Source: Myxococcales bacterium
GTDB lineage: Bacteria > Myxococcota_A > UBA9160 > SZUA-336
Length of the DNA: 64,000 bases
Direction: 5' to 3'
NCBI GenBank assembly: GCA_013215565.1
Contig: JABSQV010000130.1
Span: 8,880 to 72,879 of the forward strand
Positions 28,947-42,133 of this stretch are shown piece by piece. The translations under genes were made by a program, and so were the position numbers. The first letter of the stretch is position 1. Every line of letters begins with the position of its first letter. Under the pieces are notes generated by a model that was not told where the DNA came from, searched no databases, and saw only the letters and a program-made list of their open reading frames with translations.

Positions 28947-29138
28947 TCACCAAAGGTGCCGCCCAGCCCGACCGAAGTCAAGATGGGCGGCCTCATTGGG
29001 TTGTAGATGGAGCGACGAGGTCGGGCCTGCTCCGCCTTTCCCTGGGGGGTACCCAAGGCCCCACTACCGGGTCATCGCCCGATCACCGTAGCATGGGCCA
29101 ACGTGGTACACCAATCAGGGACGCCCAGGAGGTGCAGA

Positions 29139-29735
29139 GTGTCGAAGGCAGCGAAGGCAGAGCCAGTCGAGGAAGACCAGGCCGCGAAGTGGGTCAAACG
29201 AGAGTTGCTTGAACCCTGGGTCGGCAACCCCCGCGACAATGAGAAGGCGGTCGACCCGGTGGCGTTGTCGATCGAGCGGTTCGGGTTCGGAGCTCCGATC
29301 GTCGCGTGGAAGCCCGAGACCCCCATGGTTATCGCTGGGCACACTCGGCTCAAGGCCGCGACCAAGCTGGGCCTCGCCGAGGTACCTGTCCGCTGGATGT
29401 CGCACCTGACCGAAGCAGAGGCGAAGGCACTCGCCCTGGCCGACAATCGACTCGGTGAGTTGGCCGACTGGAACTTCGAAGGGCTGCAGGGAGAGATCCA
29501 GGCCCTCGCTGAGCAGGATGTCGACCTGTCGGGTCTGGGTTGGGCCGGCAACGAGTTGGAGGTGCTCAAAGGCAACCTCGAACAGTTCCTCCCGAAGCAG
29601 AAGCCGAAGCCGCCGAAGTCGTTGGAGTCTGAGCACTACATCGAGATCCGCTGCACCAACGAGCGACTGAATGAGATCCAGGATCAACTGCTCGCCTGGG
29701 ACGGTGAGGAAGACATCGAGGTACAGATCGCATGA
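29139..29735 (+). CDS. ParB-like nuclease domain protein
   Basis: GTG at 29139 with AGGAGG SD; NPR...GHTRLKAA ParB/Srx motifs. Confidence 0.6.
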   Translation: MSKAAKAEPVEEDQAAKWVKRELLEPWVGNPRDNEKAVDPVALSIERFGFGAPIVAWKPETPMVIAGHTRLKAATKLGLAEVPVRWMSHLTEAEAKALALADNRLGELADWNFEGLQGEIQALAEQDVDLSGLGWAGNELEVLKGNLEQFLPKQKPKPPKSLESEHYIEIRCTNERLNEIQDQLLAWDGEEDIEVQIA

Positions 29736-30580
29736 CCACCCCAGGCACCGAGCGCAACGTCAAGCAGGCCGAGAGGTTCGTCCAAGAGCACGATGGTCGA
29801 GTGACCTTCCAAGGCAAGTGCGAGGGCGAGGCGTGGCAGAAGCAGCTCCGAGATCGCTACCTGCATGAGGGCGCGCCGCCCGTCGACTTGAAGCTCAAGC
29901 GAGCCCGCGTGATCCCCGTCACCCGTCGACTCGCCGAACACATCATCTTCAAGTACGAGTGGCTCGGCACGATGGTGTCGACGGGTCGCCACTACGGGAT
30001 CTTCTTTGGTCCCTACTGCGCTGGGGTGACCTGCTCAGGCGTTGGATGCACTGGGGGCACCAACACGGCGAAGATGTTCGGCATGGAGACTCAGGAGATG
30101 TTGACCTTCGCCAGAGGGGCATGCGTCCACTGGGCACCAACGGGGGCCAACTCCAAGTTGGTGTCGTGGTCCTGCCGTCACCTCGCCGAGCACGGTCGGC
30201 TGACCGTCGCCTACGCAGATACCGACGCTGGGGAGATCGGGACAATCTACCAGGCGTGCGGTTGGACCTACATCGGCAAGGGCAGCTCGACGCGGCAGTG
30301 GGTCAGTCCCGAGGGCAAGATCCTCGATCAGAAGACCCCCGGCAACCTCGTTGAGCAGCGGGGGTTCCCGTCGAACAGCGGCGGCTGGCTCAAAGGTCAG
30401 CGCGCCCAGTGGGTTCAGGCGATGAGGGACGCGGGCTGGGTCGAGCAGATCACGAACCCGAAACACCGGTACGTTAAGGTGCTCCGGAAGCGGGACAAGG
30501 AACTGCATGCCCGGATCGCGGACATGGCGCAGCCCTACCCGAAGCGAGTGGGCACCTCGGCGGCCGCCGCCTCTCAGTAG
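29732..30580 (+). CDS. hypothetical protein (282 aa)
   Basis: Overlapping start with ParB gene; Cys/Gly-rich central region. Confidence 0.45.
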   Translation: MTTPGTERNVKQAERFVQEHDGRVTFQGKCEGEAWQKQLRDRYLHEGAPPVDLKLKRARVIPVTRRLAEHIIFKYEWLGTMVSTGRHYGIFFGPYCAGVTCSGVGCTGGTNTAKMFGMETQEMLTFARGACVHWAPTGANSKLVSWSCRHLAEHGRLTVAYADTDAGEIGTIYQACGWTYIGKGSSTRQWVSPEGKILDQKTPGNLVEQRGFPSNSGGWLKGQRAQWVQAMRDAGWVEQITNPKHRYVKVLRKRDKELHARIADMAQPYPKRVGTSAAAASQ

Positions 30581-30612
30581 AGGCGGCGGCGGATGGATTC
30601 TCGCCAACCCTT
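30575..30612. terminator. bidirectional factor-independent terminator hairpin
   Basis: GCCGCCGCCTC-TACT-GAGGCGGCGGC perfect 11-bp stem immediately after stop of 29732..30580 and downstream of leftward mini-ORF. Confidence 0.55.
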
Positions 30613-30690
30613 CAGTCGTTGTTGATGACCTTGACAGAGTCAGCGTAGGGCGTGACGATCTCAAAGCTGGTCGATGTTCGTCGTGGTCAT

Positions 30691-30753
30691 TGTCTGCTCT
30701 CTGTTGGTAGGTCCAATATAGAGGATCGACATCTCATTGGATACCGGCAATCC
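30691..30753 (-). repeat. start-associated repeat, type A, orphan copy before 9-codon ORF
   Basis: core GGTAGGTCCAATATAG plus GGATACCGGCAATCC. Confidence 0.75.
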
Positions 30754-30756
30754 AGG

Positions 30757-30990
30757 TTATTCCCCGATCATTTCCGACCGCCGAGAAATCTGTGCGTCCA
30801 TCGCGTCGAGTACCTCGTCGAGATCCAGGCGGCCCCATTGGTCCACCAGCATGGCCGAGACGCCGTCATACCACCCCTCGCGGGTGTATTCGGCGATGTC
30901 GTCGTCGGTCATGGCGGCAATGATGTGGGCGGCGGCGGCCTCATCGTCGTCGGTCATGGCGGTAAGGGCTTCGGTAGTGGTGGCGGTCAT
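30757..30990 (-). CDS. small acidic hypothetical protein
   Basis: ATG at 30990 abutting conserved repeat; MTATTTEALTAMTDDDEAAAAH. Confidence 0.45.
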   Translation of the reverse strand: MTATTTEALTAMTDDDEAAAAHIIAAMTDDDIAEYTREGWYDGVSAMLVDQWGRLDLDEVLDAMDAQISRRSEMIGE

Positions 30991-31053
30991 GTTGTCCTCT
31001 CTGTTGGTAGGTCCATCCTACTTGGAGATCCGCGACTTGGATACCGGCCAACT
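30991..31053 (-). repeat. start-associated repeat, type A
   Basis: core plus GGATACCGGCCAACTC. Confidence 0.8.
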
Positions 31054-31072
31054 CGGTTTCACCCGACTTTAT

Positions 31073-31642
31073 TTAGACGACGGCATCGCCGAACGGCTCG
31101 ATGTCTCGGGCATCGCCGTGGTGGACCAGCGTGTTCTCCGGCCAGGGCACTGCCTCGAGTTTCCGCAACCTCGGCTTGGGAGCATCGAGAGTGTGCCTCC
31201 ACTCGCCCTGCTTGCTCTTGGGTCCGAGGGTGATTCGCCGAGAGGCCATCCCAGCGTGCGGACCCTTGCAGCCGAACGACCTCTGAAGGAGCCACAACCA
31301 CGCGGCAGCTCGGGCGGGGCCTGGGTCCATCTTGGGGAGCTGCTTGCGGAGTTGGATCCAGGTCTCGACCTGTTCGGCGTCGTTGCCAGCGTTCCACGGG
31401 TTCATCTCGAACCCGAGATCGAACCCACCAACGATGTGCGACCACGCCTCGCCCCATGGGCCAACCTCACAGAGCATCACCGCGTCGGCACCCTCACCAG
31501 CTCGCAGCCCCAGCGACTCAAGGATCGCCCTCGCGTACTTGCGTTTGGCTCCCTGGTACGAGACTGGGGGCACGGCCCGGGCACCGCCGATCAGACGTAG
31601 GGTCACGGCGGCCGATCCACAGCACAGCTCGACCCACTTCAT
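31073..31642 (-). CDS. hypothetical protein with FxGxG-like motif (possible SAM-binding methyltransferase-like)
   Basis: MKWVELCCGSAAVTL then YQGAKRKYARAIL; translationally coupled to lipoprotein gene (TGATGA). Confidence 0.4.
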   Translation of the reverse strand: MKWVELCCGSAAVTLRLIGGARAVPPVSYQGAKRKYARAILESLGLRAGEGADAVMLCEVGPWGEAWSHIVGGFDLGFEMNPWNAGNDAEQVETWIQLRKQLPKMDPGPARAAAWLWLLQRSFGCKGPHAGMASRRITLGPKSKQGEWRHTLDAPKPRLRKLEAVPWPENTLVHHGDARDIEPFGDAVV

Positions 31643-32349
31643 CAGAGCGCCAACGTCCTGATGGCGTGCTCGGTGAGTCCCTGATCGTAGCTCGGGGCGC
31701 AGATGTCCTGGTGGACCCCGCCGGCCAAATTGGCGACCTCGATCTGGGACCAGCCGACCTGCTGGGCGGTCGGGCACAGCGGATCACCGCTGACGATGGA
31801 CGAGAGCATCACCCGATCGGTGTAGGACAGCGCCTCGGCCATGAAGGCGTTGGCGGAGATGGACTCATCGCTGTGGGCCGAGAGGACGACGATGCTCAGT
31901 GTCGATCCGGGCCTGACGATCTCATGCCTGCGCAGGGTCGCGAGGATCATCGACATCCCCTGATCGGATGCAGCCCCGAGCCCAAGGACGACGGCCTGGC
32001 CCAGCTCGGCCGGATCGTCGCTGCCCCAGACCCGCGCCTCGATCTGCGAGCTGTTGCCGGTGATGACCGTCGCGGTCCAGTCGACGCCTTCCAGCTCGGC
32101 GACCAGCGAGGGGATGGCCTCGGCGAGTCGATCCTGCTCGTATGCCCACCCTCCGACATCGACCGAGAACAGCAGATCGACCGGGTGGACGATCTGCTCA
32201 CCCGTGCCGGTGTCGACATCGGTATCGACATCGGTATCGGCATCGGTATCGGCATCGGCGACGGGTTCGGTCGGGGTCTTGCCGATGACGGGCTCGACCA
32301 GCTCGGGTGCAGAACACCCACCCAGTAGCAACGTGATCAGAATTCTCAT
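31642..32349 (-). CDS. secreted lipoprotein with (D-A/T/V) repeat linker
   Basis: MRILITLLLGGCSAPE signal peptide with LLGGC lipobox; DADTDADTDVDTDVDTG repeat. Confidence 0.6.
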   Translation of the reverse strand: MRILITLLLGGCSAPELVEPVIGKTPTEPVADADTDADTDVDTDVDTGTGEQIVHPVDLLFSVDVGGWAYEQDRLAEAIPSLVAELEGVDWTATVITGNSSQIEARVWGSDDPAELGQAVVLGLGAASDQGMSMILATLRRHEIVRPGSTLSIVVLSAHSDESISANAFMAEALSYTDRVMLSSIVSGDPLCPTAQQVGWSQIEVANLAGGVHQDICAPSYDQGLTEHAIRTLAL

Positions 32350-32371
32350 GACGGCCTCCCAGACCTTCGAT

Positions 32372-32686
32372 TCAAAGGGAATGTACTCGGCGAGGCAGGA
32401 GGCGCGCGAGGTAGAGCGCCATGGCAGTGGGTTGCCATGCTGGATGGGTGAGCATGATCGCCCCCAGGTCGTCGAGCGCGGTGAAGTCCCACTCCATATT
32501 GGTGATCTTCATCTCGACGGTGTGCGGGAAGTCGATGACGCTCTCGGCTGTAGTCGACAGCCCGAGACCAGGCCAGGTCGGTCTCGAATACGAGGATCGG
32601 ACCAGAGGTGATTCACCAATCTGGTACCAGTCGCCCTTGCCGTCGCTGATCGTCAGGGTGCTCACGGCCCGCTCCTCGGTGGCCAC
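32372..32686 (-). CDS. hypothetical protein
   Basis: 104-aa ORF. Confidence 0.4.
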   Translation of the reverse strand: MATEERAVSTLTISDGKGDWYQIGESPLVRSSYSRPTWPGLGLSTTAESVIDFPHTVEMKITNMEWDFTALDDLGAIMLTHPAWQPTAMALYLARLLPRRVHSL

Positions 32687-32832
32687 ATCTGCTTGGTATC
32701 AGTATCGACGATCAGCGATCGACCACCTCGCAGGACGACGGCGACGATGCTGGTCCGCTCGCTCCACTCGACCACCCGGGAAACGAACGTGTTGGGATAC
32801 GCCTCGGCGACCACCTCAAGCGCGATGGTCAT
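32662..32832 (-). CDS. small hypothetical protein
   Basis: Protein-like part MTIALEVVAEAYPNTFVSRVVEWSERTSIVAVVLRGG of ORF 32662..33153. Confidence 0.3.
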   Translation of the reverse strand: MTIALEVVAEAYPNTFVSRVVEWSERTSIVAVVLRGGRSLIVDTDTKQMWPPRSGP

Positions 32833-32855
32833 CGGGGGCTTGGCATTGTCAGCCC

Positions 32856-32958
32856 TCACGGGAGCCGCTCGAGGACGTAGACCATCGAGTCGAACAGGAC
32901 GAACAGGGCGAGGGCGGAGACCAAGATGGCCATGGTGATCTTGTAGGCGCGGGTCATG
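32856..32958 (-). CDS. 33-aa single-pass membrane peptide
   Basis: ATG overlapping stop of NTase gene (cATGAtg); MTRAYKITMAILVSALALFVLFDSMVYVLERLP. Confidence 0.35.
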
Positions 32959-33646
32959 ATGCTTCCCTGATGATGTTGATCTCGATGTTGAGGTTTCGTC
33001 CCAGGATCTCATCGCGGCCAGGGTCTGAGCGCGGGTCGAAGATCCAGCCAGGGTGGCCCTGCCTGAGGGCGATGTCGATGTCGCCCTTGAACCCTCGCGG
33101 GTCCAGGCCGAAGGTCGCGGTGTACTTCTTGAACCGCATCGAGCCGATCTCATGCATCGGGATCAACTCCCGCGCCCGCAGGTCATCGAGCGCGCCGCGG
33201 ACTGCCATGAGCACAGCCCCGTCGGTCGCGACCGCGCAGGCGCGCACATCGAACCGCGCGATGGCATCGGCGACCGACTTGCACTGGATCAAGTCGACCT
33301 CGCCGACGCTGGGCACCAGCAGCTTGGCTCGGTGCTCGCTGGGCGTGCTCTCGGAGTTGGGCGACTGGGTGGCCCCTGCAAGCTGCAGCAGATCGAACAC
33401 CTCGCCGAACGCCTTCCCCGGCATGAAGAGGTCGAGGTCACAGGTGAGGGTGTCCATCCCGAGCAGGGCGCGAGCGACAGACCCGCCGGCGACCGCTCCC
33501 CGATGTCGACGGCCGACGATGCCGAGGAGCGCGTTGACTCGCTGCCTCAGGATGCGCACCGGCTCCATCGATCGCCAGTGTGCGATCCGAAAGAGGCGAT
33601 GGAGCTCGATGTCGACGGTTCGGCAGCTGGTCGGGTCGAGGTTCAT
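32954..33646 (-). CDS. minimal nucleotidyltransferase-fold protein (Pol-beta superfamily)
   Basis: GGSVARALLGMDTLTCDLDLF equals GS-x12-DxD nucleotidyltransferase signature; 230 aa. Confidence 0.5.
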   Translation of the reverse strand: MNLDPTSCRTVDIELHRLFRIAHWRSMEPVRILRQRVNALLGIVGRRHRGAVAGGSVARALLGMDTLTCDLDLFMPGKAFGEVFDLLQLAGATQSPNSESTPSEHRAKLLVPSVGEVDLIQCKSVADAIARFDVRACAVATDGAVLMAVRGALDDLRARELIPMHEIGSMRFKKYTATFGLDPRGFKGDIDIALRQGHPGWIFDPRSDPGRDEILGRNLNIEINIIREAS

Positions 33647-34119
33647 GACTGGGGCTCGCGGTCGACGGGGATGTCGGGAGGGCTGTGGTTGAAGTTGAAG
33701 TGCCCCGGCGGGTCGAGGTAGTCGAGGCGACGGGCGGCCGCCTTGAGGGACTTGGCTGGGGTGCGCTTGATCAGGTCAATGATGACGGCCTTGGCGAGAT
33801 CGGTGTCCTGCTCCATCGCGTCGGGCCACCCGCCAGGGCAGCACTCGGTGTTGATGCAGTGGGCGGCACCCGCGTCCAGCATCTCCTCGACCAGGGCGAG
33901 GAGAGCCTTCTTGGTGACGGCGCGGCTCATCGGAGTGCCAGCCTTGCCGCGACGCAGCCAGTCCCAGACCTCGTTCGCTCGACCGGTGAACACGATCGTG
34001 CCGTCGGGCTCGCAGATGTGGTGCTTGCCCGTCGACTCGGAGTCGGTAGCTCGGTAGTGGAACAGGCCGAGGATCGACAGGACGTCGTTCAGGGTGTAGC
34101 TGGGATCAGCCTTCAACAT
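33643..34119 (-). CDS. hypothetical protein
   Basis: Protein-like from MLKADPSYTLND; Cys pairs HHICEP and CINTECCPGG. Confidence 0.45.
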   Translation of the reverse strand: MLKADPSYTLNDVLSILGLFHYRATDSESTGKHHICEPDGTIVFTGRANEVWDWLRRGKAGTPMSRAVTKKALLALVEEMLDAGAAHCINTECCPGGWPDAMEQDTDLAKAVIIDLIKRTPAKSLKAAARRLDYLDPPGHFNFNHSPPDIPVDREPQS

Positions 34120-34318
34120 CGGACACCTCGTAGGGCTCGACAGCGCCGCAGGGGCATCCGTCATCGGTGATGGTCTCGTGGCACTGGGTGCAGACGACCG
34201 ACTCGGCGAGCAGCTCAAGGCGCTGGTCCTCATCGAATCGGATGTGGACCGACTGGTCACAGTCGCCGTAGTCGTAGGAGCCGCAGATGTCGCAGCCGTA
34301 GGGATTGGGGTTGAGCAT
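34106..34318 (-). CDS. small Cys-rich protein
   Basis: MLNPNPYGCDICGSYDYGDCDQ...CTQCHETITDDGCPCG. Confidence 0.45.
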   Translation of the reverse strand: MLNPNPYGCDICGSYDYGDCDQSVHIRFDEDQRLELLAESVVCTQCHETITDDGCPCGAVEPYEVSDVEG

Positions 34319-34674
34319 TAGAGGCAGTCTCCGCCGAGGATGAAGGACTCGATCGTGGCGCTGCCGTACCCGTCGCCCTCAAAGGTCATGATGGCGCGGC
34401 CTTGACGCCGACGGAACTCGCGCTTGACGACCTTGAGGTCGGCCTGGACATCGGCGAACGTGTAGGTCTCGGTCTTCTCATCGTAGGAGGTCACGACGGT
34501 CGTGGTGACGCCCTCGGCGACACCCGAATCACGCGCGGCAGCAACGGCCGCGTTGTTGTCTTCGGACACGTAGTTGATGGCGGCGAGCCAGGCGGTCTCG
34601 ACCGACTTGAACACGCCGAGGTTCCCGTCTTCGGAGCCGCGAAGTATATAGACTGCTTTGTTGCGCTTCGACAT
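34318..34674 (-). CDS. hypothetical protein
   Basis: ATG at 34674 (MSKRNKAVYILRG) abutting conserved repeat; repeat-embedded ATG at ~34701 is in frame (MDLPTERHT-MSKR). Confidence 0.5.
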   Translation of the reverse strand: MSKRNKAVYILRGSEDGNLGVFKSVETAWLAAINYVSEDNNAAVAAARDSGVAEGVTTTVVTSYDEKTETYTFADVQADLKVVKREFRRRQGRAIMTFEGDGYGSATIESFILGGDCL

Positions 34675-34738
34675 TGTGTGCCTCTCTGTTGGTAGGTCCA
34701 TCCTATCGGAGTACCCATCTCTTGTATACCGGCAAACC
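34675..34738 (-). repeat. start-associated repeat, type A
   Basis: core plus GTATACCGGCAAACC. Confidence 0.8.
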
Positions 34739-34903
34739 GAGGTTTCTCGGTGCCTTTCTCGGATTCTAGCGACCGTTGGTCTCGACGTAGAAGGAGCAGA
34801 GGCCGCCGTCGATGCTCGGGTGGAAGTTCCAGCCCTCGTCATCCCGCTTGTCGATCGTGCCGACTTCGATGCCGTCTAGGTCGTTTCCTCGATTTAGGCA
34901 GCG

Positions 34904-35342
34904 GAACCCCAAACCCTCACCTGGCCGCTGAACCCTCGGGTCTCGAACAGGTCGCGCCTGGACCGCAGAGTGCGAGTCAGCGACTCGCGGCGGGCGGACT
35001 CGATGTCCAACTCGACCATGATCTCTTTGACGGTCATCGAACCGACACGGCCCAGCAACTCAACGACGCGGGCGCGGAGGGTGCCCGACTTGGCGCGCTT
35101 CTTCGGCTCGGGCGTGCCCTTGCCGAACTGCTTGCCGGCCCCGGTCAGAACCCAACCTGGTAGATGAAGTGACCGTCAATGAGCTTGGCTTCGGAGAGCT
35201 GCTCGATGACCGACAGGCTGTGCTTGAAGACGATTCCGTCCGTCGGGTGGTACAGCTCGGCGCTGCCCGTCTGGCCGCCGTCGGGGAGGCCCAGCCATCT
35301 TGCAGGAGGGCGAGGGCTGTGCGGGCTGCTTTCGTGAGGGTC
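34904..35342 (-). CDS. winged-helix DNA-binding protein, interrupted by two apparent frameshifts
   Basis: ATG at ~35342 abutting repeat gives MTLTKAARTALALLQDGW. High-GC3 coding then continues in -1 frame (GGQTGSAELYHPTDGIVFKHSLSVIEQLSEAKLIDGHFIYQVGF). It continues again in the third frame (GKGTPEPKKRAKSGTLRARVVELLGRVGSMTVKEIMVELDIESARRESLTRTLRSRRDLFE) ending ~34904. Shifts occur at C/G runs. Confidence 0.3.
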
Positions 35343-35405
35343 ATTGTCTGCTCTCTGTTGGTAGGTCCATCCTACTGGTCTTCCAGTGGAATGGATACCG
35401 GCAAA
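35343..35405 (-). repeat. start-associated repeat, type A
   Basis: core plus GGATACCGGCAAACC. Confidence 0.8.
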
Positions 35406-35557
35406 CCTGACTTTCTCGGTCAGACCTCGATTAGTGCGTGCCCCTCGATCTGCAGCCCTGCATCGGCGAGCGCCTTCGCCCAGAGGCTCGCCCTGCCGCG
35501 GCCTGCTCACCGGGGGCCAGCTCGCTCAGAGCTGACCGATGCACGTACCGCGAGAAC

Positions 35558-35739
35558 CCGACCTGCTTCACAGCTCGGCGAGCGCCCGCCGCCGCTTTGG
35601 GCGGAGGGTGCTTCCCCCAACGATGTCCGGCCCGCCCTCGGGGATCTTCATGCGATCCCTGCGCTTGGGATCAACCTCGCGCTGGGACAGCTTGCTCGCG
35701 GTGTCGGGCACGTTACCCCTGGCCTTGTCCTCACTTTTC
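35558..35739 (-). CDS. small basic protein
   Basis: MPKKSEDKARGNVPDTASKLSQREVDPKRRDRMKIPEGGPDIVGGSTLRPKRRRALAEL; not in ORF table because under 60 aa threshold region. Confidence 0.35.
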
Positions 35740-36125
35740 TTCGGCATCGGATTCCTCTTGGCACTCCGAGCATATCGGATCGGAGTCGTCTTCGGGAGGG
35801 TCGACCATCGTGCCGCACTCGATGCACTCCACGCGCATCGGGATCCCGTCGAGCGCGTCGGCCAGCCCCAAGGGGGACGAGACCTCGCCGAGCAGCACCC
35901 CGCCGGCCTGGGCCAGGTAGCCCGTGACCTTCAAGAACCCGTCGGCCTCGTCGGGACCGCTGAAGCCCCGCCAGCTCGTTCGGGCCGGGTAGGCATCGGT
36001 GACTGTGCCGTCCTCTTCCTCCTCGAGGACGATGCACATCCCGAAGAGGTGCAGCGAGCGGTTCACCCACCACAGCAGTCCCGAGTCCCTGAATGCCTCC
36101 CACGGCTTGCGTTCGATGTTTCCGC

Positions 36126-36129
<4 letters not shown>
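35731..36129 (-). CDS. hypothetical protein with C-terminal zinc ribbon
   Basis: Start MSGNIERKPWEAF; VECIECG...CSEC. Confidence 0.45.
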
Positions 36130-36458
<329 letters not shown>

Positions 36459-36628
36459 CTCCTCACGGAAGCAGCCGGGGTGGCTGGGAGACAGTCACCC
36501 GCGCACCCCGACCTCGTTCTGGTGTTCGAGCGGGAAGTCGTCCGCCCGAGGAGAGGCGTGCCCTCTCCTCGCCGAGTTGTTGCGAACAATGGCGAAGCCC
36601 GCGACCCACATCGGCCAGGTCATCGGCA

Positions 36629-37326
36629 TCATCCCTCAGAGCCCTGGGCCACCGACTCGCAGACCGACTGGATCTGCTTGTCGAGGTCAGCGTGGGCTGT
36701 GCCCTCAAGCGCAGCCTTGAACGTCCCGCTCTCGGTCACCTCGCCGAGAGGACCGCTATCGACCATGTTCGCCCTCACGGCGATGTAGGCATGACCGTCG
36801 AAGGCGAGCAACTCGGCGAGTTTGCGCAGCAGGTGCTCCTCGGCACCGGGGGGCAGGGTCTGCAGGACGTAGATGCAGATCACGGTGTCGTACCGCTCAC
36901 GGTGGAGACCCTTGTCTCGGTGATTCGGATCCCAGCCTCGGCGGTTGCGCCTTTGGAGAGCAGCCCGTGGGTCGCGTTCTCCATCCACATGCGTTCGATG
37001 ACCTCATCGGTCAGGTCGTCCGAGATCGTGTCCCAGACCAGGACGCGGACATCGCCCCAGACGGTCGCCCTGATCGGCTCGTAGATCAGCCCAGTCCAAC
37101 TCGCCTCGAACTGCACTGGCGGCGGGGGCTCGATGGTGAAGGCGCCGGTCGCCTCGATGGCCCTGATCTTCTCGAACAGGAGCATCAACTCGATCGAGCG
37201 GATGCAGACCATCCACTCACAAGCCACCATCTCGTCGTCGGTCTTGTAGACCCGGTACGCCTTGGCGTTGAGGAGCAGCCCGACCACGTTGATCGGGAGT
37301 GGGATCGCTGGCAGCAGGCTCATCAA
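36629..37326 (-). CDS. SAM-dependent methyltransferase-like protein, apparent frameshift near 36890
   Basis: C-terminal frame YDTVICIYVLQTLPPGAEEHLLRKLAELLAFDGHAYIAV equals class I MTase motif; N-terminal part in ORF 36880..37326; frames overlap 36880-36988. Confidence 0.35.
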
Positions 37327-37622
37327 TGTGCCAACCCCTTGACCACTTCGGTGTGACCCGCCTCGGCCTGCTCGCGGGTGCAGTAGCGGCGACCGATGTG
37401 ATCGAACTCATCGCTCTCACCGAATACCATGGTCTCGTAGAGCACGGGTGCCGCCCCGCGTTGGAAGGCATGATCGATCCCGAGAAACACGGTCGAGACC
37501 ACGACCTCGGGCGCGACTTCAGTCCGAGCTACGGTTCGGCGATCAACATCGTTGAACCAAGCCGCCCACTTGAGCGCGTCGGGCTCGGCAACAGGAACGC
37601 CGTCCACCTCGATGTAGTACAT
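37323..37622 (-). CDS. hypothetical protein
   Basis: Protein-like from MYYIEVDGVPVAEPDALKW. Confidence 0.45.
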   Translation of the reverse strand: MYYIEVDGVPVAEPDALKWAAWFNDVDRRTVARTEVAPEVVVSTVFLGIDHAFQRGAAPVLYETMVFGESDEFDHIGRRYCTREQAEAGHTEVVKGLAH

Positions 37623-37624
37623 GC

Positions 37625-38266
37625 TCACGACGCCGCCCCAGCCCAGCCGGCGTCGTCGCCGTCGGTCGGCTCGGTCGACTTGGTGGCGGCCGAGAACGTG
37701 CCGTCGGTGAACTCCGAGAGCGGTCGGCAGTGGATCCCGCTGGGGCCTGAGTAGACCACGCCGGGACATCCGTCGATCGGGTTGTCGCGGCACTCGATGG
37801 TGCAGGGACCGATGACCGTGTAGGTCTCGCCATCGGAGTGCGTCCACTCGCTGCCCTGTGCGGGCTGTTCGCCGACCGTCCTGAACAGCCGCAGTCCCTC
37901 ACGGACCTTCCGTCGGAGCTCCGACGCGGTGTCGTCCCGAGTGAGGTCGCCATGACTCGGGCCAGGCACGACGCTGCCGTCCTTCATGCAGAACAGGCCG
38001 TCCCAGAACACGTCCTGTGTGCCGTCGCGATGCCTCACGGCGACACACGGGGTGAGCTGGTACAGGCAGACGGCGCCGACGCTCTTGGCGAACTTGCCGA
38101 CCAGCGTGCCCATCTTGGTCGCGCCCTCCTCGATGGGTTGCCCCGACGCGATCCGTGAGGCCGCGGTGGACATCTCACGGTGGTCACGGAACTCCTCGGG
38201 CACGTCCTCGATCGGGACGCCGACGTGCTTGGAGAAGATCTCGCTGAGATTGGTGACGTTCTGCAT
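37625..38266 (-). CDS. hypothetical protein (213 aa)
   Basis: Protein-like composition. Confidence 0.5.
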   Translation of the reverse strand: MQNVTNLSEIFSKHVGVPIEDVPEEFRDHREMSTAASRIASGQPIEEGATKMGTLVGKFAKSVGAVCLYQLTPCVAVRHRDGTQDVFWDGLFCMKDGSVVPGPSHGDLTRDDTASELRRKVREGLRLFRTVGEQPAQGSEWTHSDGETYTVIGPCTIECRDNPIDGCPGVVYSGPSGIHCRPLSEFTDGTFSAATKSTEPTDGDDAGWAGAAS

Positions 38267-38311
38267 GCTGCCTCCTGCGCCCAGGTATCGGTCAGAGCGC
38301 CTCGCCGTGAG

Positions 38312-38506
38312 TCAGAAGGGCGCGACGGTCTTGGGCGGGTCGAACGGAACGGCGTCGGCCCAGAGGCGATCGAACTCACGGCGGGTGCAGCGAGGGCACT
38401 GGTACAGCTTGAAGGACGACGTGAACCCGATCGCCCTCTCGGCGAGGCAGTGGCGCCCACAGGCGTAGCAGGCATCGATCTTGGTCAGGGTGTCGAGCGG
38501 GATCAT
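38312..38506 (-). CDS. small zinc-ribbon protein
   Basis: CYAC...C...CPRC. Confidence 0.45.
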   Translation of the reverse strand: MIPLDTLTKIDACYACGRHCLAERAIGFTSSFKLYQCPRCTRREFDRLWADAVPFDPPKTVAPF

Positions 38507-38519
38507 CGGCTCTCTGTAA

Positions 38520-38756
38520 TCAGGCCGGCTCGACGACGGTGATGATCAGCTTCACCGGGACGGCAGGGATCTTGGCTGTCTCCTTGAACTCCCAAGCGTT
38601 GTTGGTGCGGTTGGCCGCGCTGGTCGCCTGACCGCGCTTGTTGAAGATCTGGGCACGCTCGAACGGCACCCACTTGGTCGAGCCGCTGTTCTTGTTCAGA
38701 TACCAGAGCCCGTCCTCGTTGCGGACAGCCCACGCCTCGCGAGTTGGTGCGCTCAT
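38520..38756 (-). CDS. hypothetical protein
   Basis: Protein-like from MSAPTREAWAVRNEDGLWYL. Confidence 0.4.
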   Translation of the reverse strand: MSAPTREAWAVRNEDGLWYLNKNSGSTKWVPFERAQIFNKRGQATSAANRTNNAWEFKETAKIPAVPVKLIITVVEPA

Positions 38757-38929
38757 TCGACGATCCCTCTTCGAACACTCTCGGTGCCCATCCAGTGTCC
38801 AGACATCCGAGCGAGGGCGAGCAGGGCGACGGCGCCGAGCCCGTAGAAGTAGAAGCCCAGCACCAACGTCATGAAGTAGGCCGTGTCGACAAGCCAGGGT
38901 GTCCATTCATCTCGATCGTCGCTGCTCAT
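38753..38929 (-). CDS. small membrane protein
   Basis: MSSDDRDEWTPWLVDTAYFMTLVLGFYFYGLGAVALLALA. Confidence 0.35.
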   Translation of the reverse strand: MSSDDRDEWTPWLVDTAYFMTLVLGFYFYGLGAVALLALARMSGHWMGTESVRRGIVE

Positions 38930-39285
38930 CCGATGATCGTCCCGCCCCTCAGCAGGGCCTCGCCGATGGGCGGCAGCGGCACGGGCTTCGGCTTGCCGCC
39001 GACCAGTCGCCACACCTCGTACCGTGAGCCATCGCGGCGCTGATGCAGATCGACCTGGATGCCGCAGCGTGGGATCTGCGCCTGGCCCATGGGGCTGGCC
39101 TGGGCGACCTCGAGGAGATGGCGTAGGGTCTTGGTGTCGGCGATGAAGATCCGGTCACCGGGGTCGTCTGGGCCGCCTGTGGTCACCCTGCGAAGCAGCT
39201 CATCGGTCCCCGGCTTCTGCAGCGGGTTGGGGTTCACCTTGGGTGCGATCTGCGGATGCAGGATCCCCTGTTCGTCGCTGCCCAT
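38926..39285 (-). CDS. hypothetical protein
   Basis: 119-aa ORF. Confidence 0.4.
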   Translation of the reverse strand: MGSDEQGILHPQIAPKVNPNPLQKPGTDELLRRVTTGGPDDPGDRIFIADTKTLRHLLEVAQASPMGQAQIPRCGIQVDLHQRRDGSRYEVWRLVGGKPKPVPLPPIGEALLRGGTIIG

Positions 39286-39307
39286 GTTCTGCTTCCTCTC
39301 TATGAAG

Positions 39308-39369
39308 TGGTGGGTCCAGCAGGACTCGAACCTGCGACTCTCGGCTTAAAAGGCCGGTGCTCTAAACTC
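39308..39369 (-). tRNA. tRNA-Lys(UUU)-like 3' fragment (D-stem 3' half through CCA); no complementary 5' acceptor strand
   Basis: RC reads TTAGAGCACCGGCCTTTTAAGCCGAGAGTCGCAGGTTCGAGTCCTGCTGGACCCACCA. Anticodon loop CTTTTAA, T arm GCAGG-TTCGAGT-CCTGC, CCA present. Upstream lacks GGGTCCA and a full D arm. Confidence 0.4.
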
Positions 39370-39751
39370 TGTCCTCTGGTATCGCCTCATCGGTCTGAGC
39401 GTCAGCCGCTCGGTGCATCTCCTCCAGCCGACGCTCAAGCTCACGGAGGGGCAGGCCGGTCAGATCGACCATCTCCTGGGTGACGGGGAACACGGGGAGC
39501 TTCAACCCGTCGTCGTACTGGAGCCAGTTCGTGGCGCCGCGGACGAGTCGTGGCGCCCGTCTGGTCGAGGCGAGCTTGGCGGCGACGGGCTCTGCTCGCT
39601 GATCGGGCCAGGGCTCCTCACCCGCGAGGTACAGCCGATGCCGCAGTTGGTAGACCTCGGATTCGAGGCGTGCATGCTCACGGCGATGGATCGTGTATTC
39701 GAGCCACCAGATGATCGAGACCGCGATGGCGCTGCACAGGAACTGGGTCAT
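39362..39751 (-). CDS. membrane-anchored hypothetical protein
   Basis: N-terminal TM FLCSAIAVSIIWWL. Confidence 0.45.
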   Translation of the reverse strand: MTQFLCSAIAVSIIWWLEYTIHRREHARLESEVYQLRHRLYLAGEEPWPDQRAEPVAAKLASTRRAPRLVRGATNWLQYDDGLKLPVFPVTQEMVDLTGLPLRELERRLEEMHRAADAQTDEAIPEDRV

Positions 39752-40173
39752 TCGATCTTGACCTCGGCGAGTCGGCGCTGGGCAGCGATGAGGCGATCGG
39801 TCTGCTCTGCCGCGAACCGCTGCAGCTCCAGTCGGTCAGCGATGAGCGCCGAGACCTCGTCGTAGCCGAACTCCTCATGCAGGTTCGACTCGCCGCGCTT
39901 CTCCATCGAGGCGATGTCCCTCGGCGAGAGCTTCAGCGAGGGCAGGCCGGTCTTGGGTGGTGGGGTCAGCAGATCGCACGCCGCCTTGGCGCCGAACGCG
40001 GACTCGTAGTCACCCCCGACTGCCACGCCGCTGGGCATGGGCTCGAACACCCTCCAACTCCCACCGAGCTGCTCGACCGTCCAGCCATCGACTCGCTTCC
40101 AGTCACCCGCTTGGTCCTGTGTCCAGATCTCGCTCAGTCTCCAGATCTCGCTCAGTCCCAATCCCATAGCCAC
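39748..40173 (-). CDS. hypothetical protein
   Basis: Contains 18-bp tandem duplication encoding LSEIWRLSEIW. Confidence 0.45.
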   Translation of the reverse strand: MAMGLGLSEIWRLSEIWTQDQAGDWKRVDGWTVEQLGGSWRVFEPMPSGVAVGGDYESAFGAKAACDLLTPPPKTGLPSLKLSPRDIASMEKRGESNLHEEFGYDEVSALIADRLELQRFAAEQTDRLIAAQRRLAEVKIE

Positions 40174-40292
40174 TCCTTCAGCTTGGCGGCGACGACCGCG
40201 ACACCGATCACCGTCAGTAGGACGGTGGCCGTCAAGACGAACCCAGCGTCGATCTCCAGCTCACCCGGCGCTCGGGGCACCGATCCACTCAT
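40152..40292 (-). CDS. small membrane peptide
   Basis: MSGSVPRAPGELEIDAGFVLTATVLLTVIGVAVVAAKLKEWLWDWD. Confidence 0.3.
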   Translation of the reverse strand: MSGSVPRAPGELEIDAGFVLTATVLLTVIGVAVVAAKLKEWLWDWD

Positions 40293-40294
40293 GC

Positions 40295-40621
40295 TCACGG
40301 CTTCACCTGAGTCACCTTGTGCGGCTGCACGTTGTAGAAGAATGCCCACTCGACGCTGCCGAGAGGACCGATGTACCCGATCGCCGGCGTGGGTCTCCAG
40401 AACGGCCACCCGTCCCACATCCCGACGTGGAGAACCTCGAACGTGGAGAACCCCGACGGGCAGTACCGCCACCCCTCGGGGTCATCGTTCATCTTGAGGA
40501 TGGTCTCCCAGCCTCGCCGCGCGTGGTCGGCATTGACCGCATTGTGCTGAGTGTGATCGTAGTCGCGATCGACGGGGCCGAGGAACTCACCCTCACGGAC
40601 GGTGACGGTTCTGGTCTTCAC
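40295..40621 (-). CDS. hypothetical protein (GTG start)
   Basis: GTG overlapping upstream stop (GTGA); Trp-rich C-terminus. Confidence 0.4.
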   Translation of the reverse strand: MKTRTVTVREGEFLGPVDRDYDHTQHNAVNADHARRGWETILKMNDDPEGWRYCPSGFSTFEVLHVGMWDGWPFWRPTPAIGYIGPLGSVEWAFFYNVQPHKVTQVKP

Positions 40622-40872
40622 GGCGACAGGTCCGCCAGCTTGTAGTGCGGGGTGTGGTAGTCGACCGGGTGCTCGCTCTCGGTGGCCTGGCCCTGGATCT
40701 TGCCCCAGGACACCGTGAGGGGATCGTGGAGATCGATCGACTCGCCATCCTCGCCCTCCAGCTCGGTGTTCCACGACTTGAGGCGCTCCTCGGCATCGGC
40801 GCGCGCTGCCTCTTCGGACACGTGGGCGGTGAAGCCCTCCTCCTCGTCGTATGCGAACCATTGCTTGCCCAT
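40618..40872 (-). CDS. acidic hypothetical protein
   Basis: ATG at 40872 preceded by variant B repeat with GGGTAC-N5-GTACCC. Confidence 0.45.
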   Translation of the reverse strand: MGKQWFAYDEEEGFTAHVSEEAARADAEERLKSWNTELEGEDGESIDLHDPLTVSWGKIQGQATESEHPVDYHTPHYKLADLSP

Positions 40873-40920
40873 GATGTCTCCAAATTTGCGGTGAGCGACG
40901 GGTACTGGATGTACCCACTC
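40873..40920 (-). repeat. type B element with GGGTACTGGATGTACCC palindrome
   Basis: palindrome ~40900-40916 upstream of ATG 40872. Confidence 0.6.
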
Positions 40921-40935
40921 GGGGATGGGGTTGAG

Positions 40936-41217
40936 TTAATTGCCAGAGGCGACGGGTCTGGGCCACACGGTCTTCAACCGGACCTCTCGACTATCGCTCC
41001 CAAAGTTGTGATCGCCATACACCAGTGTGTCGCCGTCCCAGCCCTTGATCCGACGTTCATCGGTTTGGACTTCACGCGCCTCGGCGTGGTCGGTCATCAT
41101 CTCGCTCGAAACGATGTCATGGACGCTCGACTTGGCGCGCACCTCGCTCTCGGCCAACACGTAGGCCGACACCTGAATGTCCACGCGGTAGAGCTTCATC
41201 GGTTTGGACCGACGCAT
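40936..41217 (-). CDS. hypothetical protein
   Basis: 93-aa ORF. Confidence 0.4.
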   Translation of the reverse strand: MRRSKPMKLYRVDIQVSAYVLAESEVRAKSSVHDIVSSEMMTDHAEAREVQTDERRIKGWDGDTLVYGDHNFGSDSREVRLKTVWPRPVASGN

Positions 41218-41471: not shown

Positions 41472-41513
41472 GACGCCCTCCTGCTGGGAGGTATCGGTCT
41501 GCAGGCGCTGCCG

Positions 41514-42014: not shown

Positions 42015-42133
42015 TTCGCGCGCCCATCCCCATCGGTGCGCGACTCCTCAGGCCCCAACACCCAGATGGTCGGTCCAACCTCGTCATCGGACAGCGCATA
42101 GGTGCGCGACTCCAGGCAGTGCGGCATCCGCGA

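What the first reader, a model, noticed from the sequence alone, without database searches (positions are those of the whole stretch)
31073..33646. Nucleotidyltransferase, overlapping 33-aa membrane peptide and lipoprotein cluster
A minimal Pol-beta-fold nucleotidyltransferase (GS-x12-DLDLF) is translationally coupled (cATGAtg) to a 33-codon single-TM peptide. Downstream follow an unknown gene, a lipobox lipoprotein with an Asp-Thr/Ala repeat linker, and a gene with an FxGxG-like motif. Small TM peptides coupled to NTases are reminiscent of effector or toxin modules and superinfection-exclusion cassettes.
Basis: partly seen in the sequence, partly recalled or inferred. Interest (0 to 1): 0.65.

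Follow-up and report, generated by a model that had tools for sequence, protein, structure and literature searches.

The report
Gad2-like phage nucleotidyltransferase among unrelated genes
The 230-residue gene really is a small nucleotidyltransferase, a divergent relative of the phage "Gad2" anti-defence family built like the catalytic head of tRNA CCA-adding enzymes, but the membrane peptide, lipoprotein and motif-bearing gene beside it are unrelated passengers in the same tightly packed phage operon, not a toxin or exclusion module.

Summary
On the minus strand, 34674 to 31073 carries nine tightly packed genes.

The 230-aa protein is a class II (CCA-adding/poly(A)-polymerase-like) nucleotidyltransferase head-and-neck domain. 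It belongs to a rare, divergent branch of the phage family that Pfam calls Gad2 (PF26128). Support comes from profile searches, an hhalign match to experimentally verified Gad2, and a confident AlphaFold model whose best PDB matches are CCA-adding enzymes. It is not a CD-NTase, OAS or MNT.

The module interpretation fails:
- None of the neighbouring genes accompanies the nucleotidyltransferase in its four known relatives.
- The ATGA overlap is the default gene junction of this phage (about 27 cases in the window).

The "FxGxG" gene is a DPPY methyltransferase cut off immediately before its catalytic motif. The lipoprotein has no detectable homologues.

The most likely role is a solitary early counter-defence or host-manipulation enzyme; the acceptor substrate is unknown. 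This is a new, divergent member of a known kind, of modest interest.

The parts
34682..34751 (-). Copy of a ~70-nt repeat (small hairpin, TTTGCCGGTATACAA in this copy (consensus ...GGTATCCAA), ~17 nt, TAGGATGGACCTACCAACAGAGAGG, 5 nt, ATG). Candidate phage-specific promoter/leader that opens the operon holding the finding.
   Evidence: The 23-nt core occurs 7 times with up to 3 mismatches, against 0 expected. Family D1/D2. Alignment of 8 copies. No sigma-70 consensus was found. Function is inferred.
34318..34674 (-). First gene of the operon, 118 aa, unknown function.
   Evidence: GC3 0.84; ATG lies 5 nt after the repeat core. No family hits.
34106..34318 (-). 70-aa Cys-rich (CxxC...CxxC) protein, unknown function.
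   Evidence: GC3 0.84. NCBI calls it HRU00_17185, hypothetical.
33643..34119 (-). 158-aa unknown protein. Its stop overlaps the nucleotidyltransferase start as ATGA.
   Evidence: GC3 0.89. The exact 158-aa product is in the collection as HRU00_17180. Only sub-threshold Pfam hints, DUF7316 and DUF7307.
32954..33646 (-). 230-aa stand-alone class II Pol-beta nucleotidyltransferase (head plus start of neck), a divergent Gad2-family (PF26128-like) protein. Catalytic residues D70, D72, D118. Motif B-like R131-F-D133.
32856..32957 (-). 33-aa single-pass membrane peptide, MTRAYKITMAILVSALALFVLFDSMVYVLERLP. Probably a real gene, but specific to this phage.
   Evidence: GC3 33/33; Kyte-Doolittle 2.37; AGGGAA lies 6 nt upstream. 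Fills the gap between its neighbours. Called on 17 contigs of this phage population, but not by NCBI. Absent after the homologues in L001, L003 and L004. Weak hit to phrog_21919, E 0.008.
32662..32859 (-). 65-aa unknown protein from a GTG start in a GTGA overlap (56 aa if the ATG at 32832 is used).
   Evidence: GC3 0.80. Both forms are in the collection; NCBI uses the 56-aa form, HRU00_17170. No family hits.
32372..32665 (-). 97-aa unknown protein from a GTG start in a GTGA overlap.
   Evidence: GC3 0.76. HRU00_17165. Similarity to the ORF after the L001 homologue is not significant: E 0.04 and z 2.5.
31642..32349 (-). 235-aa predicted lipoprotein. It has a short signal peptide with lipobox L-G-G-C12, a D-T-D-A/V repeat linker, and a ~180-aa domain without homologues.
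   Evidence: Sequence and regular expression. GGGAGG ribosome-binding site 5 nt upstream. 12-nt tandem repeat. No homologues in Pfam, PHROGs, NCBIfam, PADLOC, PDB, cultured phages, IMG/VR or GTDB genomes.
31073..31642 (-). 189-aa N-terminal remnant of a ~280-aa DPPY (amino-)methyltransferase. It stops immediately before the catalytic motif.
   Evidence: Eight homologues of 280-322 aa. The four closest are 57-63% identical over essentially all 189 residues; the other four are 34-68% identical, two of them over only 34-63% of the query. In the seven that were aligned, the chain continues past the point where the window ORF stops ('...GDAVV'): five read DPPY there and two read DPDY or DSDY. No C-terminal remnant anywhere in the window. 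The same 189-aa form occurs on several independent contigs.
30997..31066 (-). Next copy of the ~70-nt repeat. It abuts the truncated methyltransferase and precedes the 77-aa gene 30757..30990, so it closes the operon.

Best explanation
The window is a high-GC tailed-phage genome that was binned into a Myxococcales MAG. The finding sits in a nine-gene, minus-strand operon of small accessory genes (34674 to 31073). The operon is bracketed by two copies of a phage-specific ~70-nt promoter/leader-like repeat.

Only one of its genes has relatives elsewhere with a related job: the 230-aa protein.
- It is a stand-alone class II Pol-beta nucleotidyltransferase, equivalent to the catalytic head and first neck helices of CCA-adding enzymes and poly(A) polymerase.
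- It belongs to a rare, divergent branch of the widespread phage family that Pfam names Gad2.
- It keeps the two-metal carboxylates (D70, D72, D118).
- It keeps the ribose-sensing RRD-like motif (R131-F-D133).
- It lacks the EDxxR base-selecting motif and the tRNA-binding body and tail domains.

Inferred mechanism: early in infection it uses an NTP to add nucleotides to a 3'-OH (RNA or DNA end) or another acceptor. This would blunt a host defence or redirect host metabolism, as the verified family member Gad2 does against Gabija by a still unknown mechanism.

The other genes are unrelated cargo that merely share the transcript: the 33-aa membrane peptide, the 65-aa and 97-aa proteins, the orphan lipoprotein and the methyltransferase stump. 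The lipoprotein and the peptide may individually act at the envelope, for example in exclusion, but not as partners of the enzyme.

Shown: the fold, family, motifs, gene structure, lack of synteny and the truncation. Inferred: the activity, its timing and the counter-defence role.
For: Family and fold:
- A profile of the protein and its two closest homologues finds 232 representatives at E<=1e-3 among 1.84 billion proteins, mostly about 200 aa long.
- Nearly all hits of the profile search with the wider alignment A2, which lists several of those representatives (P0028, P0037, P0053, P0081, P0115), carry the precomputed Pfam family PF26128 Gad2. L007 and L009 confirm this.
- hhalign of the 65-sequence family alignment against the verified Brevibacillus Gad2 gives probability 98.9 and E 4e-17 over Gad2 residues 26-174.
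- The ten-sequence close subfamily alone gives E 3.8e-4 with the same collinear register.
- The family profile against PDB sequences hits CCA-adding enzyme 1MIV (E 4e-5) and E. coli poly(A) polymerase 3AQL (E 7e-5), across motifs A to C and the neck.
- 6 of 65 family members hit PF01743.
- The AlphaFold2 model has pLDDT 85.8 and pTM 0.83.
- In Foldseek against the PDB, ranks 1-27 are all class II CCA-, CC- or A-adding enzymes and poly(A) polymerase; the best is 5HC9 at E 7.6e-8.
- BFVD lists small phage 'Poly A polymerase head domain' or 'nucleotidyltransferase' proteins, for example from LKD16, Ninurta and PS3.
- The catalytic residues are invariant in the subfamily.

Solitary gene:
- No flanking gene is shared with L001, L002, L003 or L004.
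- Family members elsewhere sit alone among small early genes and nucleotide-metabolism genes.

Operon:
- Overlaps of 4, 4, 4, 4 and 1 nt join the genes.
- Repeat copies lie at both ends.

Counter-defence precedent:
- Knocking out gad2 makes SPbetaL7 sensitive to Gabija, and a homologue restores resistance.
- The Gad2 mechanism was still unknown in 2026.
Against: - The window protein itself has no Pfam hit, whether locally or precomputed.
- Pairwise BLASTP to Gad2 is not significant, E 0.14. Membership therefore rests on profiles and a transitive chain.
- It lacks the ~220-residue C-terminal half of the 394-400-aa verified Gad2 proteins. Anti-Gabija activity cannot be carried over from the N-terminal domain alone.
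- No Gabija system, or any other host defence, is known for this uncultured host.
- Nothing here shows when the gene is expressed or whether the protein is active.
- tRNA-related neighbours in relatives point to an RNA substrate rather than an anti-nuclease role: SpoU methylase in L003 and a 30-tRNA array in L004.
Confidence: 0.6

Rival explanations
1. tRNA-directed enzyme. The protein repairs or extends tRNA 3' ends (CCA-type addition) for phage or host tRNAs, for example to counter defences that damage tRNA acceptor ends.
For: - The best sequence and structure matches are CCA-adding enzymes.
- Motifs A and B and the motif C region are kept.
- In L003 the homologue is followed directly by a SpoU-type RNA methylase.
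- In L004 the homologue lies 2.5 kb from an array of 30 tRNA genes.
- The window holds two tRNA-like elements by Rfam.
Against: - No EDxxR nucleotide-template motif is present, and there are no body or tail domains for tRNA binding (length 230 aa).
- 22 of 23 tRNAs checked in L004 already encode CCA.
- ARAGORN finds no tRNA in the window. The two Rfam hits are atypical and lie 6 kb and 19 kb away.
- The adjacency evidence is anecdotal, from two loci.
- L001 has no tRNA-related gene within 11.5 kb.
Confidence: 0.2
2. The nucleotidyltransferase, the translationally coupled membrane peptide and the lipoprotein form a toxin/effector or superinfection-exclusion cassette.
For: - ATGA coupling is present, and the peptide looks like a real membrane peptide.
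- Phage lipoproteins are classic exclusion factors (established knowledge: T5 Llp, Cor).
- Gad2-family enzymes can be toxic when overexpressed.
Against: - Neither the peptide, the lipoprotein nor any other neighbour follows the homologue in L001, L003 or L004.
- NTGA overlaps are the norm in this genome.
- No PADLOC hit.
- No CD-NTase, OAS or MNT among the top fold matches.
- The lipoprotein lies four genes away, after a 22-nt gap, with its own ribosome-binding site.
Confidence: 0.07
3. Host shut-off toxin of the MenT type. The enzyme adds nucleotides to host tRNA acceptor stems to block charging and arrest host translation.
For: - SPbetaL7 Gad2 and the Emajogi gp22 nucleotidyltransferase are cytotoxic.
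- MenT1 (8AN4) appears in the fold list at E 9e-3.
Against: - MenT1 ranks only 50th, with a query-normalised TM-score of 0.31.
- No antitoxin-like partner is present, and there is no PADLOC AbiE/MenT hit.
- The non-toxic Brevibacillus Gad2 still blocks Gabija, so toxicity is not the family's defining activity.
Confidence: 0.08

Closest known systems
Gad2 (Gabija anti-defence 2; Pfam PF26128), verified in Bacillus phage SPbetaL7 and a Brevibacillus laterosporus prophage
   Same: - The N-terminal nucleotidyltransferase domain is homologous. The shared motifs, in the same order, are AGG...DxDxF, a third Asp strand, FDF..C, L.D...R.L and R..KY..G.
- Both are phage-encoded solitary accessory genes.
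   Different: - The window protein has 230 aa against 394-400 aa. It lacks the whole C-terminal half of Gad2.
- It has its own ~45-residue N- and C-terminal extensions, which the model pairs as a beta-sheet.
- It scores only 33 bits against a PF26128-type profile, where Gad2 scores 74.
- It has no direct Pfam hit.
- Its host and any target defence system are unknown.
Short (~160-220 aa) phage 'poly(A) polymerase head domain' or 'nucleotidyltransferase' proteins, e.g. Pseudomonas phage LKD16, Dickeya phage Ninurta, Providencia phage PS3 and Emajogi gp22
   Same: Same size class, same minimal head-plus-neck architecture and same fold. Many are annotated as Gad2 family.
   Different: - Sequence identity is only about 20-30%.
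- The window subfamily has about ten representatives among 1.84 billion proteins.
- It is absent from cultured phages, IMG/VR and GTDB representative genomes.
Class II tRNA nucleotidyltransferases (CCA-adding, CC-adding and A-adding enzymes) and bacterial poly(A) polymerase I (Pfam PF01743)
   Same: - Catalytic head fold.
- Motif A (GG.V.R.LLG...DxD).
- Motif B-like RFD.
- The motif C region and the first neck helix.
   Different: - No EDxxR (motif D) nucleotide template.
- No body or tail domains.
- About half the length.
- The window protein does not reach the PF01743 threshold.
Amino-methyltransferases with a DPPY catalytic motif (for the 189-aa ORF only)
   Same: Full-length homologues carry an N-terminal ELCCGSAAVTL (motif I-like) segment. 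They then carry Y(I/M)DPPY at the position where the window ORF ends.
   Different: - The window copy stops before DPPY and lacks the last ~90 residues.
- Neither it nor its homologues match any Pfam methyltransferase model.

Membership tests
Pol-beta superfamily nucleotidyltransferase | Signature hG[GS]x9-13Dh[DE]h with two catalytic carboxylates | tested here: met
   A53-G-G-S56, then 13 residues, then D70-L-D72-L. G54, G55, D70 and D72 are invariant in 10 subfamily and 68 family sequences.
Pol-beta superfamily nucleotidyltransferase | Third catalytic carboxylate on the following beta-strand, and the alpha/beta core fold | tested here: met
   D118 is invariant in the subfamily. The AlphaFold2 model has pLDDT 85.8. 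Foldseek probability is 1.00 to many nucleotidyltransferase structures.
Class II nucleotidyltransferase (CCA-adding/PAP, PF01743) | Motif A (GGxVRD...DxD) and motif B (RRD, ribose recognition) | tested here: met
   GGSVARALLG...DLD and R131-F-D133 align with the motifs of 1MIV and 3AQL. F132 and D133 are nearly invariant across the family.
Class II nucleotidyltransferase (CCA-adding/PAP, PF01743) | Motif D (EDxxR), the nucleotide-selecting template | tested here: not met
   In the alignment to 1MIV the family has a gap where the REDALR segment lies. Its invariant R171 aligns with the later RAVRF arginine.
Class II nucleotidyltransferase (CCA-adding/PAP, PF01743) | Body and tail domains that bind tRNA (enzyme of ~400 aa) | tested here: not met
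   The protein has 230 aa. Matches cover only head and neck, with target-normalised TM-scores of 0.2-0.3.
Class II nucleotidyltransferase (CCA-adding/PAP, PF01743) | Scores above the Pfam PF01743 threshold | tested here: not met
   No Pfam family at E<=1 for the window protein. 6 of 65 relatives do hit PF01743, best E 2e-7.
Gad2 family (PF26128) | Homology to the Gad2 nucleotidyltransferase domain | tested here: met
   - hhalign of the family against verified Gad2: E 4e-17.
- The close subfamily alone: E 3.8e-4.
- Pairwise BLASTP is not significant.
Gad2 family (PF26128) | Direct hit to the curated Pfam model | tested here: inconclusive
   There is no precomputed Pfam domain for P0001 or P0002, and only a weak one for P0003. 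The local Pfam copy returned no PF26128 hit for any sequence, so it may not hold that model.
Gad2 family (PF26128) | Full-length architecture of verified Gad2 (~400 aa with a C-terminal domain) | tested here: not met
   The alignment ends at Gad2 residue ~174. The window protein has no counterpart of residues 175-394.
Gad2 family (PF26128) | Inhibits Gabija defence | not testable with these tools
   Needs a phage infection assay.
CD-NTase / cGAS / OAS | Matches CD-NTase models or the cGAS-like fold, with an adjacent effector gene | tested here: not met
   No PADLOC hit at E<=1. None among the top 50 PDB fold matches. No conserved neighbour.
MNT / AbiEii / MenT toxin-antitoxin nucleotidyltransferases | Family model match plus a cognate HEPN or antitoxin partner | tested here: not met
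   No PADLOC or Pfam hit. MenT1 appears only at rank 50, E 9e-3. No partner gene is conserved.
Bacterial lipoprotein (signal peptidase II substrate), for ORF 31642..32349 | Lipobox [LVI][ASTVIG][GAS]C after a basic n-region and a hydrophobic h-region | tested here: met
   M-R-ILITLLL-G-G-C12 matches the pattern.
Bacterial lipoprotein (signal peptidase II substrate), for ORF 31642..32349 | Cys at position 15-35 (classic PROSITE rule), or a positive call by a trained predictor | tested here: inconclusive
   The Cys is at position 12, and no upstream start exists. No LipoP or SignalP tool was available. The PROSITE rule is quoted from memory.
DPPY amino-methyltransferase, for ORF 31073..31642 | Catalytic motif IV (D/N/S)PP(Y/F) | tested here: not met
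   The ORF stops at ...GDAVV. Homologues continue with Y(I/M)DPPY. No remnant is present elsewhere in the window.

The most novel reading that the evidence does not exclude
The window protein and its roughly ten known relatives form a distinct branch of minimal class II nucleotidyltransferases. They carry their own N- and C-terminal extensions and act on tRNA or tRNA-like RNAs. They are linked to phage tRNA arrays, a SpoU methylase and the odd tRNA-like elements of this phage. On this reading they would be a new tRNA-centred counter-defence enzyme that works without the canonical tRNA-binding domains.
Probability: 0.12. Interest if true: 0.6.

Novelty: new member of a known kind. Interest (0 to 1): 0.3.

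Why it matters
Gad2 is a verified anti-Gabija protein whose mechanism is still unknown. Its nucleotidyltransferase domain turns out to be shared by hundreds of ~200-aa phage proteins and by this rare, high-GC, Myxococcales-associated branch. A 230-aa version that keeps only the catalytic head and neck narrows down what is needed for the chemistry. It could serve as a compact subject for biochemistry.

For genome annotation there are three corrections:
- A hypothetical protein becomes a Gad2-like class II nucleotidyltransferase.
- A hypothetical protein becomes a truncated DPPY methyltransferase.
- A 4-nt overlap in this phage says nothing about functional coupling.

None of this overturns current understanding.

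Tried and rejected
- Direct Pfam, PHROGs, NCBIfam and PADLOC scans of all genes of the cluster gave nothing usable.
- megablast and tblastn against 50,697 cultured phages found no match for the region, the nucleotidyltransferase, the lipoprotein or the 189-aa ORF. The terminase is only ~25% identical to any cultured phage.
- Relatives of the nucleotidyltransferase were sought in IMG/VR (single protein and subfamily alignment) and in GTDB genomes. None was found. The 65-sequence alignment was too diverse for pattern search.
- The first AlphaFold run, with 3 sequences, was poor (pLDDT 49) and was replaced by the 68-sequence run.
- PDB sequence searches with the 3-sequence and 10-sequence profiles were not significant. 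Only the 65-sequence profile reached CCA-adding enzymes.
- A possible conserved partner was tested: the 97-aa protein against the ORF after the L001 homologue. It was rejected at BLASTP E 0.04 and z 2.5 among 36 comparisons.
- A link between the nucleotidyltransferase and the neighbouring Mom gene was considered, because Mom uses Gly-tRNA. It was dropped because no relative carries Mom.
- By eye, the lipoprotein domain resembles a VWA fold with a degenerate metal site. No tool supported this, so it is not claimed.
- Near-identical metagenomic variants of the 33-aa peptide and the enzyme differ by single residues only and gave no information on selection.


Full report
**Setting**

The window has about 64.5% G+C and is a tailed-phage genome.
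- The minus strand from 572 to 28946 carries a tape-measure protein, an SU10-type major capsid protein, a portal and a gpA-type large terminase.
- A ParB_N gene overlapping a Mom-family gene lies on the plus strand at 29007..30580.
- A long minus-strand array of small genes runs from about 47000 down to 30757.
- The 230-aa protein is 100% identical to NRA04323.1, 'MAG: hypothetical protein HRU00_17175 [Myxococcales bacterium]', on a 78-kb contig.
- The phage is far from anything cultured. The region has no DNA match in 50,697 phage records, and the terminase is at best about 25% identical.

**Checking the observation**

In this high-GC genome, third-codon-position G+C separates coding frames well. 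It averages 0.85 in frame, against 0.67 and 0.45 in the two other frames of the same strand. The third-position values for the cluster are:

| Gene | Coordinates (minus strand) | Third-position G+C |
|---|---|---|
| 118 aa | 34318..34674 | 0.84 |
| 70 aa | 34106..34318 | 0.84 |
| 158 aa | 33643..34119 | 0.89 |
| 230 aa | 32954..33646 | 0.86 |
| 33 aa | 32856..32957 | 1.00 |
| 65 aa | 32662..32859 | 0.80 |
| 97 aa | 32372..32665 | 0.76 |
| 235 aa | 31642..32349 | 0.84 |
| 189 aa | 31073..31642 | 0.79 |

The 33-aa ORF is therefore very probably translated.
- All 33 codons end in G or C, which happened in none of 1014 off-frame windows.
- It has a 19-residue hydrophobic stretch (Kyte-Doolittle 2.37).
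- It has an AGGGAA ribosome-binding site.
- It fills the space between its neighbours exactly.

The junctions along the operon, in order, are ATGA, ATGA, GTGA and GTGA, then a 22-nt gap with a GGGAGG site, then TGATG.

Two details need correcting. The motif is GS-x13-DLDLF, not x12. And two unknown genes, not one, separate the peptide from the lipoprotein.

**What the 230-aa protein is**

Direct scans find nothing. A word-seeded search of 5.8 billion proteins finds only two homologues, at 44% and 41% identity. In these, and in seven further relatives, G54, G55, R59, D70, D72, D118, R131, D133, D155, R159, R171 and Y175 are invariant.

The family then widens in steps.
- A profile of the three sequences, run exhaustively against 1.84 billion representatives, finds 232 proteins at E<=1e-3, mostly about 200 aa long.
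- A profile search with the wider 65-sequence alignment lists several of those representatives, and nearly all of its hits carry the precomputed Pfam family PF26128, 'Gad2'.
- I took the sequence of the experimentally verified Gad2 homologue of Brevibacillus laterosporus from Supplementary Table 10 of doi 10.1101/2023.05.01.538930.
- hhalign of the 65-sequence family alignment against it gives probability 98.9 and E 4e-17 over Gad2 residues 26-174.
- The ten-sequence close subfamily alone gives E 3.8e-4 in the same register.
- Pairwise BLASTP is not significant.
- As a control against circularity, I built an HMM from 117 PF26128-annotated proteins only. It scores Gad2 at 73.6 bits and the window protein at 33.4 bits, E 1.8e-6 for a notional million-sequence database.

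The protein is thus a remote but real relative of the Gad2 nucleotidyltransferase domain.

**Which kind of nucleotidyltransferase**

- The family profile hits PDB sequences of the Bacillus CCA-adding enzyme (1MIV, E 4e-5) and E. coli poly(A) polymerase (3AQL, E 7e-5). The alignments run through motif A, the RRD-like motif B, the motif C region and the first neck helix. They leave a gap where the EDxxR nucleotide template lies.
- Six of 65 members reach Pfam PolyA_pol.
- A first AlphaFold run with three sequences was poor. With 68 sequences the model has mean pLDDT 85.8 and pTM 0.83.
- In Foldseek against the PDB, the first 27 ranks are all class II CCA-, CC- or A-adding enzymes and poly(A) polymerase (best 5HC9, E 7.6e-8). 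TENT5, terminal uridylyltransferases and, at rank 50, MenT1 follow. No cGAS, CD-NTase, OAS or MNT appears.
- Against viral models, the matches include small phage 'poly(A) polymerase head domain' or 'nucleotidyltransferase' proteins (LKD16, Ninurta, PS3), and giant-virus proteins annotated as tRNA nucleotidyltransferases.

**Is it a module with its neighbours?**

The four loci that carry relatives of the close subfamily were compared with the window.
- L001 and L002 carry P0002, L003 carries P0003, and L004 came from the metagenome scan.
- L003 is a true relative of this phage: its terminase is 63% identical.
- In none of these loci is the homologue followed by a short membrane ORF.
- None shares any other gene of the cluster.
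- Smith-Waterman scores with shuffling for 36 pairs of flanking proteins give at best z 2.5-3.0.
- More distant family members sit alone among small early genes and nucleotide-metabolism genes.
- The 4-nt overlap is not a mark of this pair. About 27 such junctions occur in the window, 19 of them in this gene array.

The cluster is a mosaic of cargo genes on one transcript, not a conserved cassette.

**The other genes**

The 189-aa ORF.
- It has eight homologues of 280-322 aa. The four closest are 57-63% identical over essentially all of its length.
- They continue '...GDAVV-Y(I/M)DPPY...' exactly where the window ORF stops. It is therefore a methyltransferase gene cut off just before its catalytic motif.
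- No remnant of the missing 90 residues exists in the window.
- The same truncated form is seen on several independent contigs.
- The truncation abuts a repeat copy.
- The next repeat copy, 300 nt on, is followed by only a 9-codon ORF before the convergent Mom gene. The stretch 30580..31073 therefore looks like a rearrangement scar (inference).

The lipoprotein.
- It has a plausible but very short signal peptide (Cys12), a basic residue at position 2 and an L-G-G-C lipobox.
- It has a D-T-D-A/V linker encoded by a 12-nt tandem repeat.
- It has no homologue in any resource tried.
- A role at the envelope, such as exclusion, is reasonable from what is known of phage lipoproteins. Nothing here tests it.

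**The operon boundaries**

A ~70-nt element recurs on the minus strand at 11699, 24211, 30697, 30997, 34682 and 35351, with two diverged copies.
- It holds a small hairpin whose stem covaries between copies.
- It holds the box TTTGCCGGTATCCAA.
- It holds an invariant core, TGGACCTACCAACAGAGAG, ending 5-6 nt before an ATG.
- There is no sigma-70 consensus and no intrinsic terminator in the region.

I read it as a phage-specific promoter/leader. The copies at 34682 and 30997 bracket the nine genes. This is an inference.

**Mechanism**

From the conserved chemistry of class II nucleotidyltransferases, the protein should bind an NTP with two metal ions at D70, D72 and D118. It should sense the ribose with the RFD motif and transfer the nucleotide to a 3'-OH.

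What it transfers to is open. The only functional precedent in the family is Gad2.
- Knocking it out makes SPbetaL7 sensitive to Gabija, and a homologue restores resistance.
- Its mechanism was still unknown in 2026.
- SPbetaL7 Gad2 and a family member in phage Emajogi are toxic when overexpressed.

I therefore favour a solitary counter-defence or host-manipulation enzyme. I put about 0.85 on the family and fold assignment and about 0.35-0.4 on the counter-defence role.

The main rival is a tRNA-directed activity.
- In favour: the SpoU methylase next to the L003 homologue, the 30-tRNA array 2.5 kb from the L004 homologue, and two atypical tRNA-like elements in the window.
- Against: the missing EDxxR motif and tRNA-binding domains, and the fact that 22 of 23 L004 tRNAs checked already encode CCA.

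**Verdict**

The nucleotidyltransferase call is right and can be made more precise. The module interpretation is not supported. The gene is a new, divergent member of a known phage family, and the rest of the cluster is ordinary phage cargo, including one decayed gene. Interest is modest.

Noticed in passing
window 11699-11790, 24211-24302, 30697-30766, 30997-31066, 34682-34751, 35351-35420 (all minus strand); diverged copies at 48964 (-) and 52015 (+): A ~70-nt repeat placed just before start codons. It holds a small hairpin with a covarying stem and a GAAA-type loop, the box TTTGCCGGTATCCAA, and an invariant 19-nt core TGGACCTACCAACAGAGAG ending 5-6 nt before ATG. The 23-nt core occurs 7 times against 0 expected. 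It has no sigma-70 consensus. It is possibly a phage-specific promoter/leader.
   Followed up: partly
window 31073..31642 (-): The 189-aa ORF is a methyltransferase truncated immediately before its DPPY catalytic motif. Its homologues are 280-322 aa long. The cut abuts a copy of the repeat.
   Followed up: yes
window 30661..30766 (-): One repeat copy is followed by only a 9-codon ORF (MTTTNIDQL) before the convergent end of the Mom gene. Together with the truncated methyltransferase, this suggests a rearrangement scar at 30580-31073.
   Followed up: no
window 14213..14284 (-): A tRNA-like sequence scoring 53.8 bits with the Rfam tRNA model, anticodon CAU. One base is missing in the 3' acceptor strand. 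ARAGORN misses it. It sits between the capsid gene and the next structural gene.
   Followed up: partly
window 39311..39369 (-): A 59-nt tRNA-like element without a D-arm (Rfam 34.2 bits, just above threshold), anticodon UUU, followed by an encoded CCA. It could be a mini-tRNA, an attachment-site remnant or a chance hit. It folds no better than shuffled sequence.
   Followed up: partly
L004 2065..5305 and 7869..8561: The only metagenomic relative of the nucleotidyltransferase subfamily (38% identity) lies 2.5 kb from an array of 30 tRNA genes on the opposite strand. 22 of the 23 checked encode CCA.
   Followed up: partly
L003 1703..2931: In a related phage (terminase 63% identical), the nucleotidyltransferase homologue is followed directly by a SpoU-type RNA 2'-O-methyltransferase gene.
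   Followed up: no
window 29007..30580 (+): A ParB_N-domain gene overlaps by ATGA a Mom-family gene (PF25680, E 1e-22). Mom was recently shown to hypermodify adenine in DNA using Gly-tRNA (PMC13219725). This phage probably modifies its DNA, which may have made the truncated methyltransferase dispensable.
   Followed up: partly
window 47429..51617 (-): A phage-borne trio of a DUF6744 protein, a bpMoxR AAA+ ATPase (E 5e-57) and a VWA-domain protein. These are components known from MoxR-vWA conflict systems.
   Followed up: no
window 59229..62309 (+): A 1026-aa Toprim-DnaB primase-helicase is interrupted by a LAGLIDADG/Hom_end domain, i.e. a probable intein.
   Followed up: no
window 32208..32255 (-): A 12-nt tandem repeat (about 4 copies) encodes the D-T-D-A/V linker of the lipoprotein. 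It is a likely site of length variation.
   Followed up: no
window, whole: About 27 stop/start overlaps of the NTGA type occur in the window, 19 of them in the minus-strand small-gene array 32662..45844. Four-base overlaps are the normal junction in this genome.
   Followed up: yes
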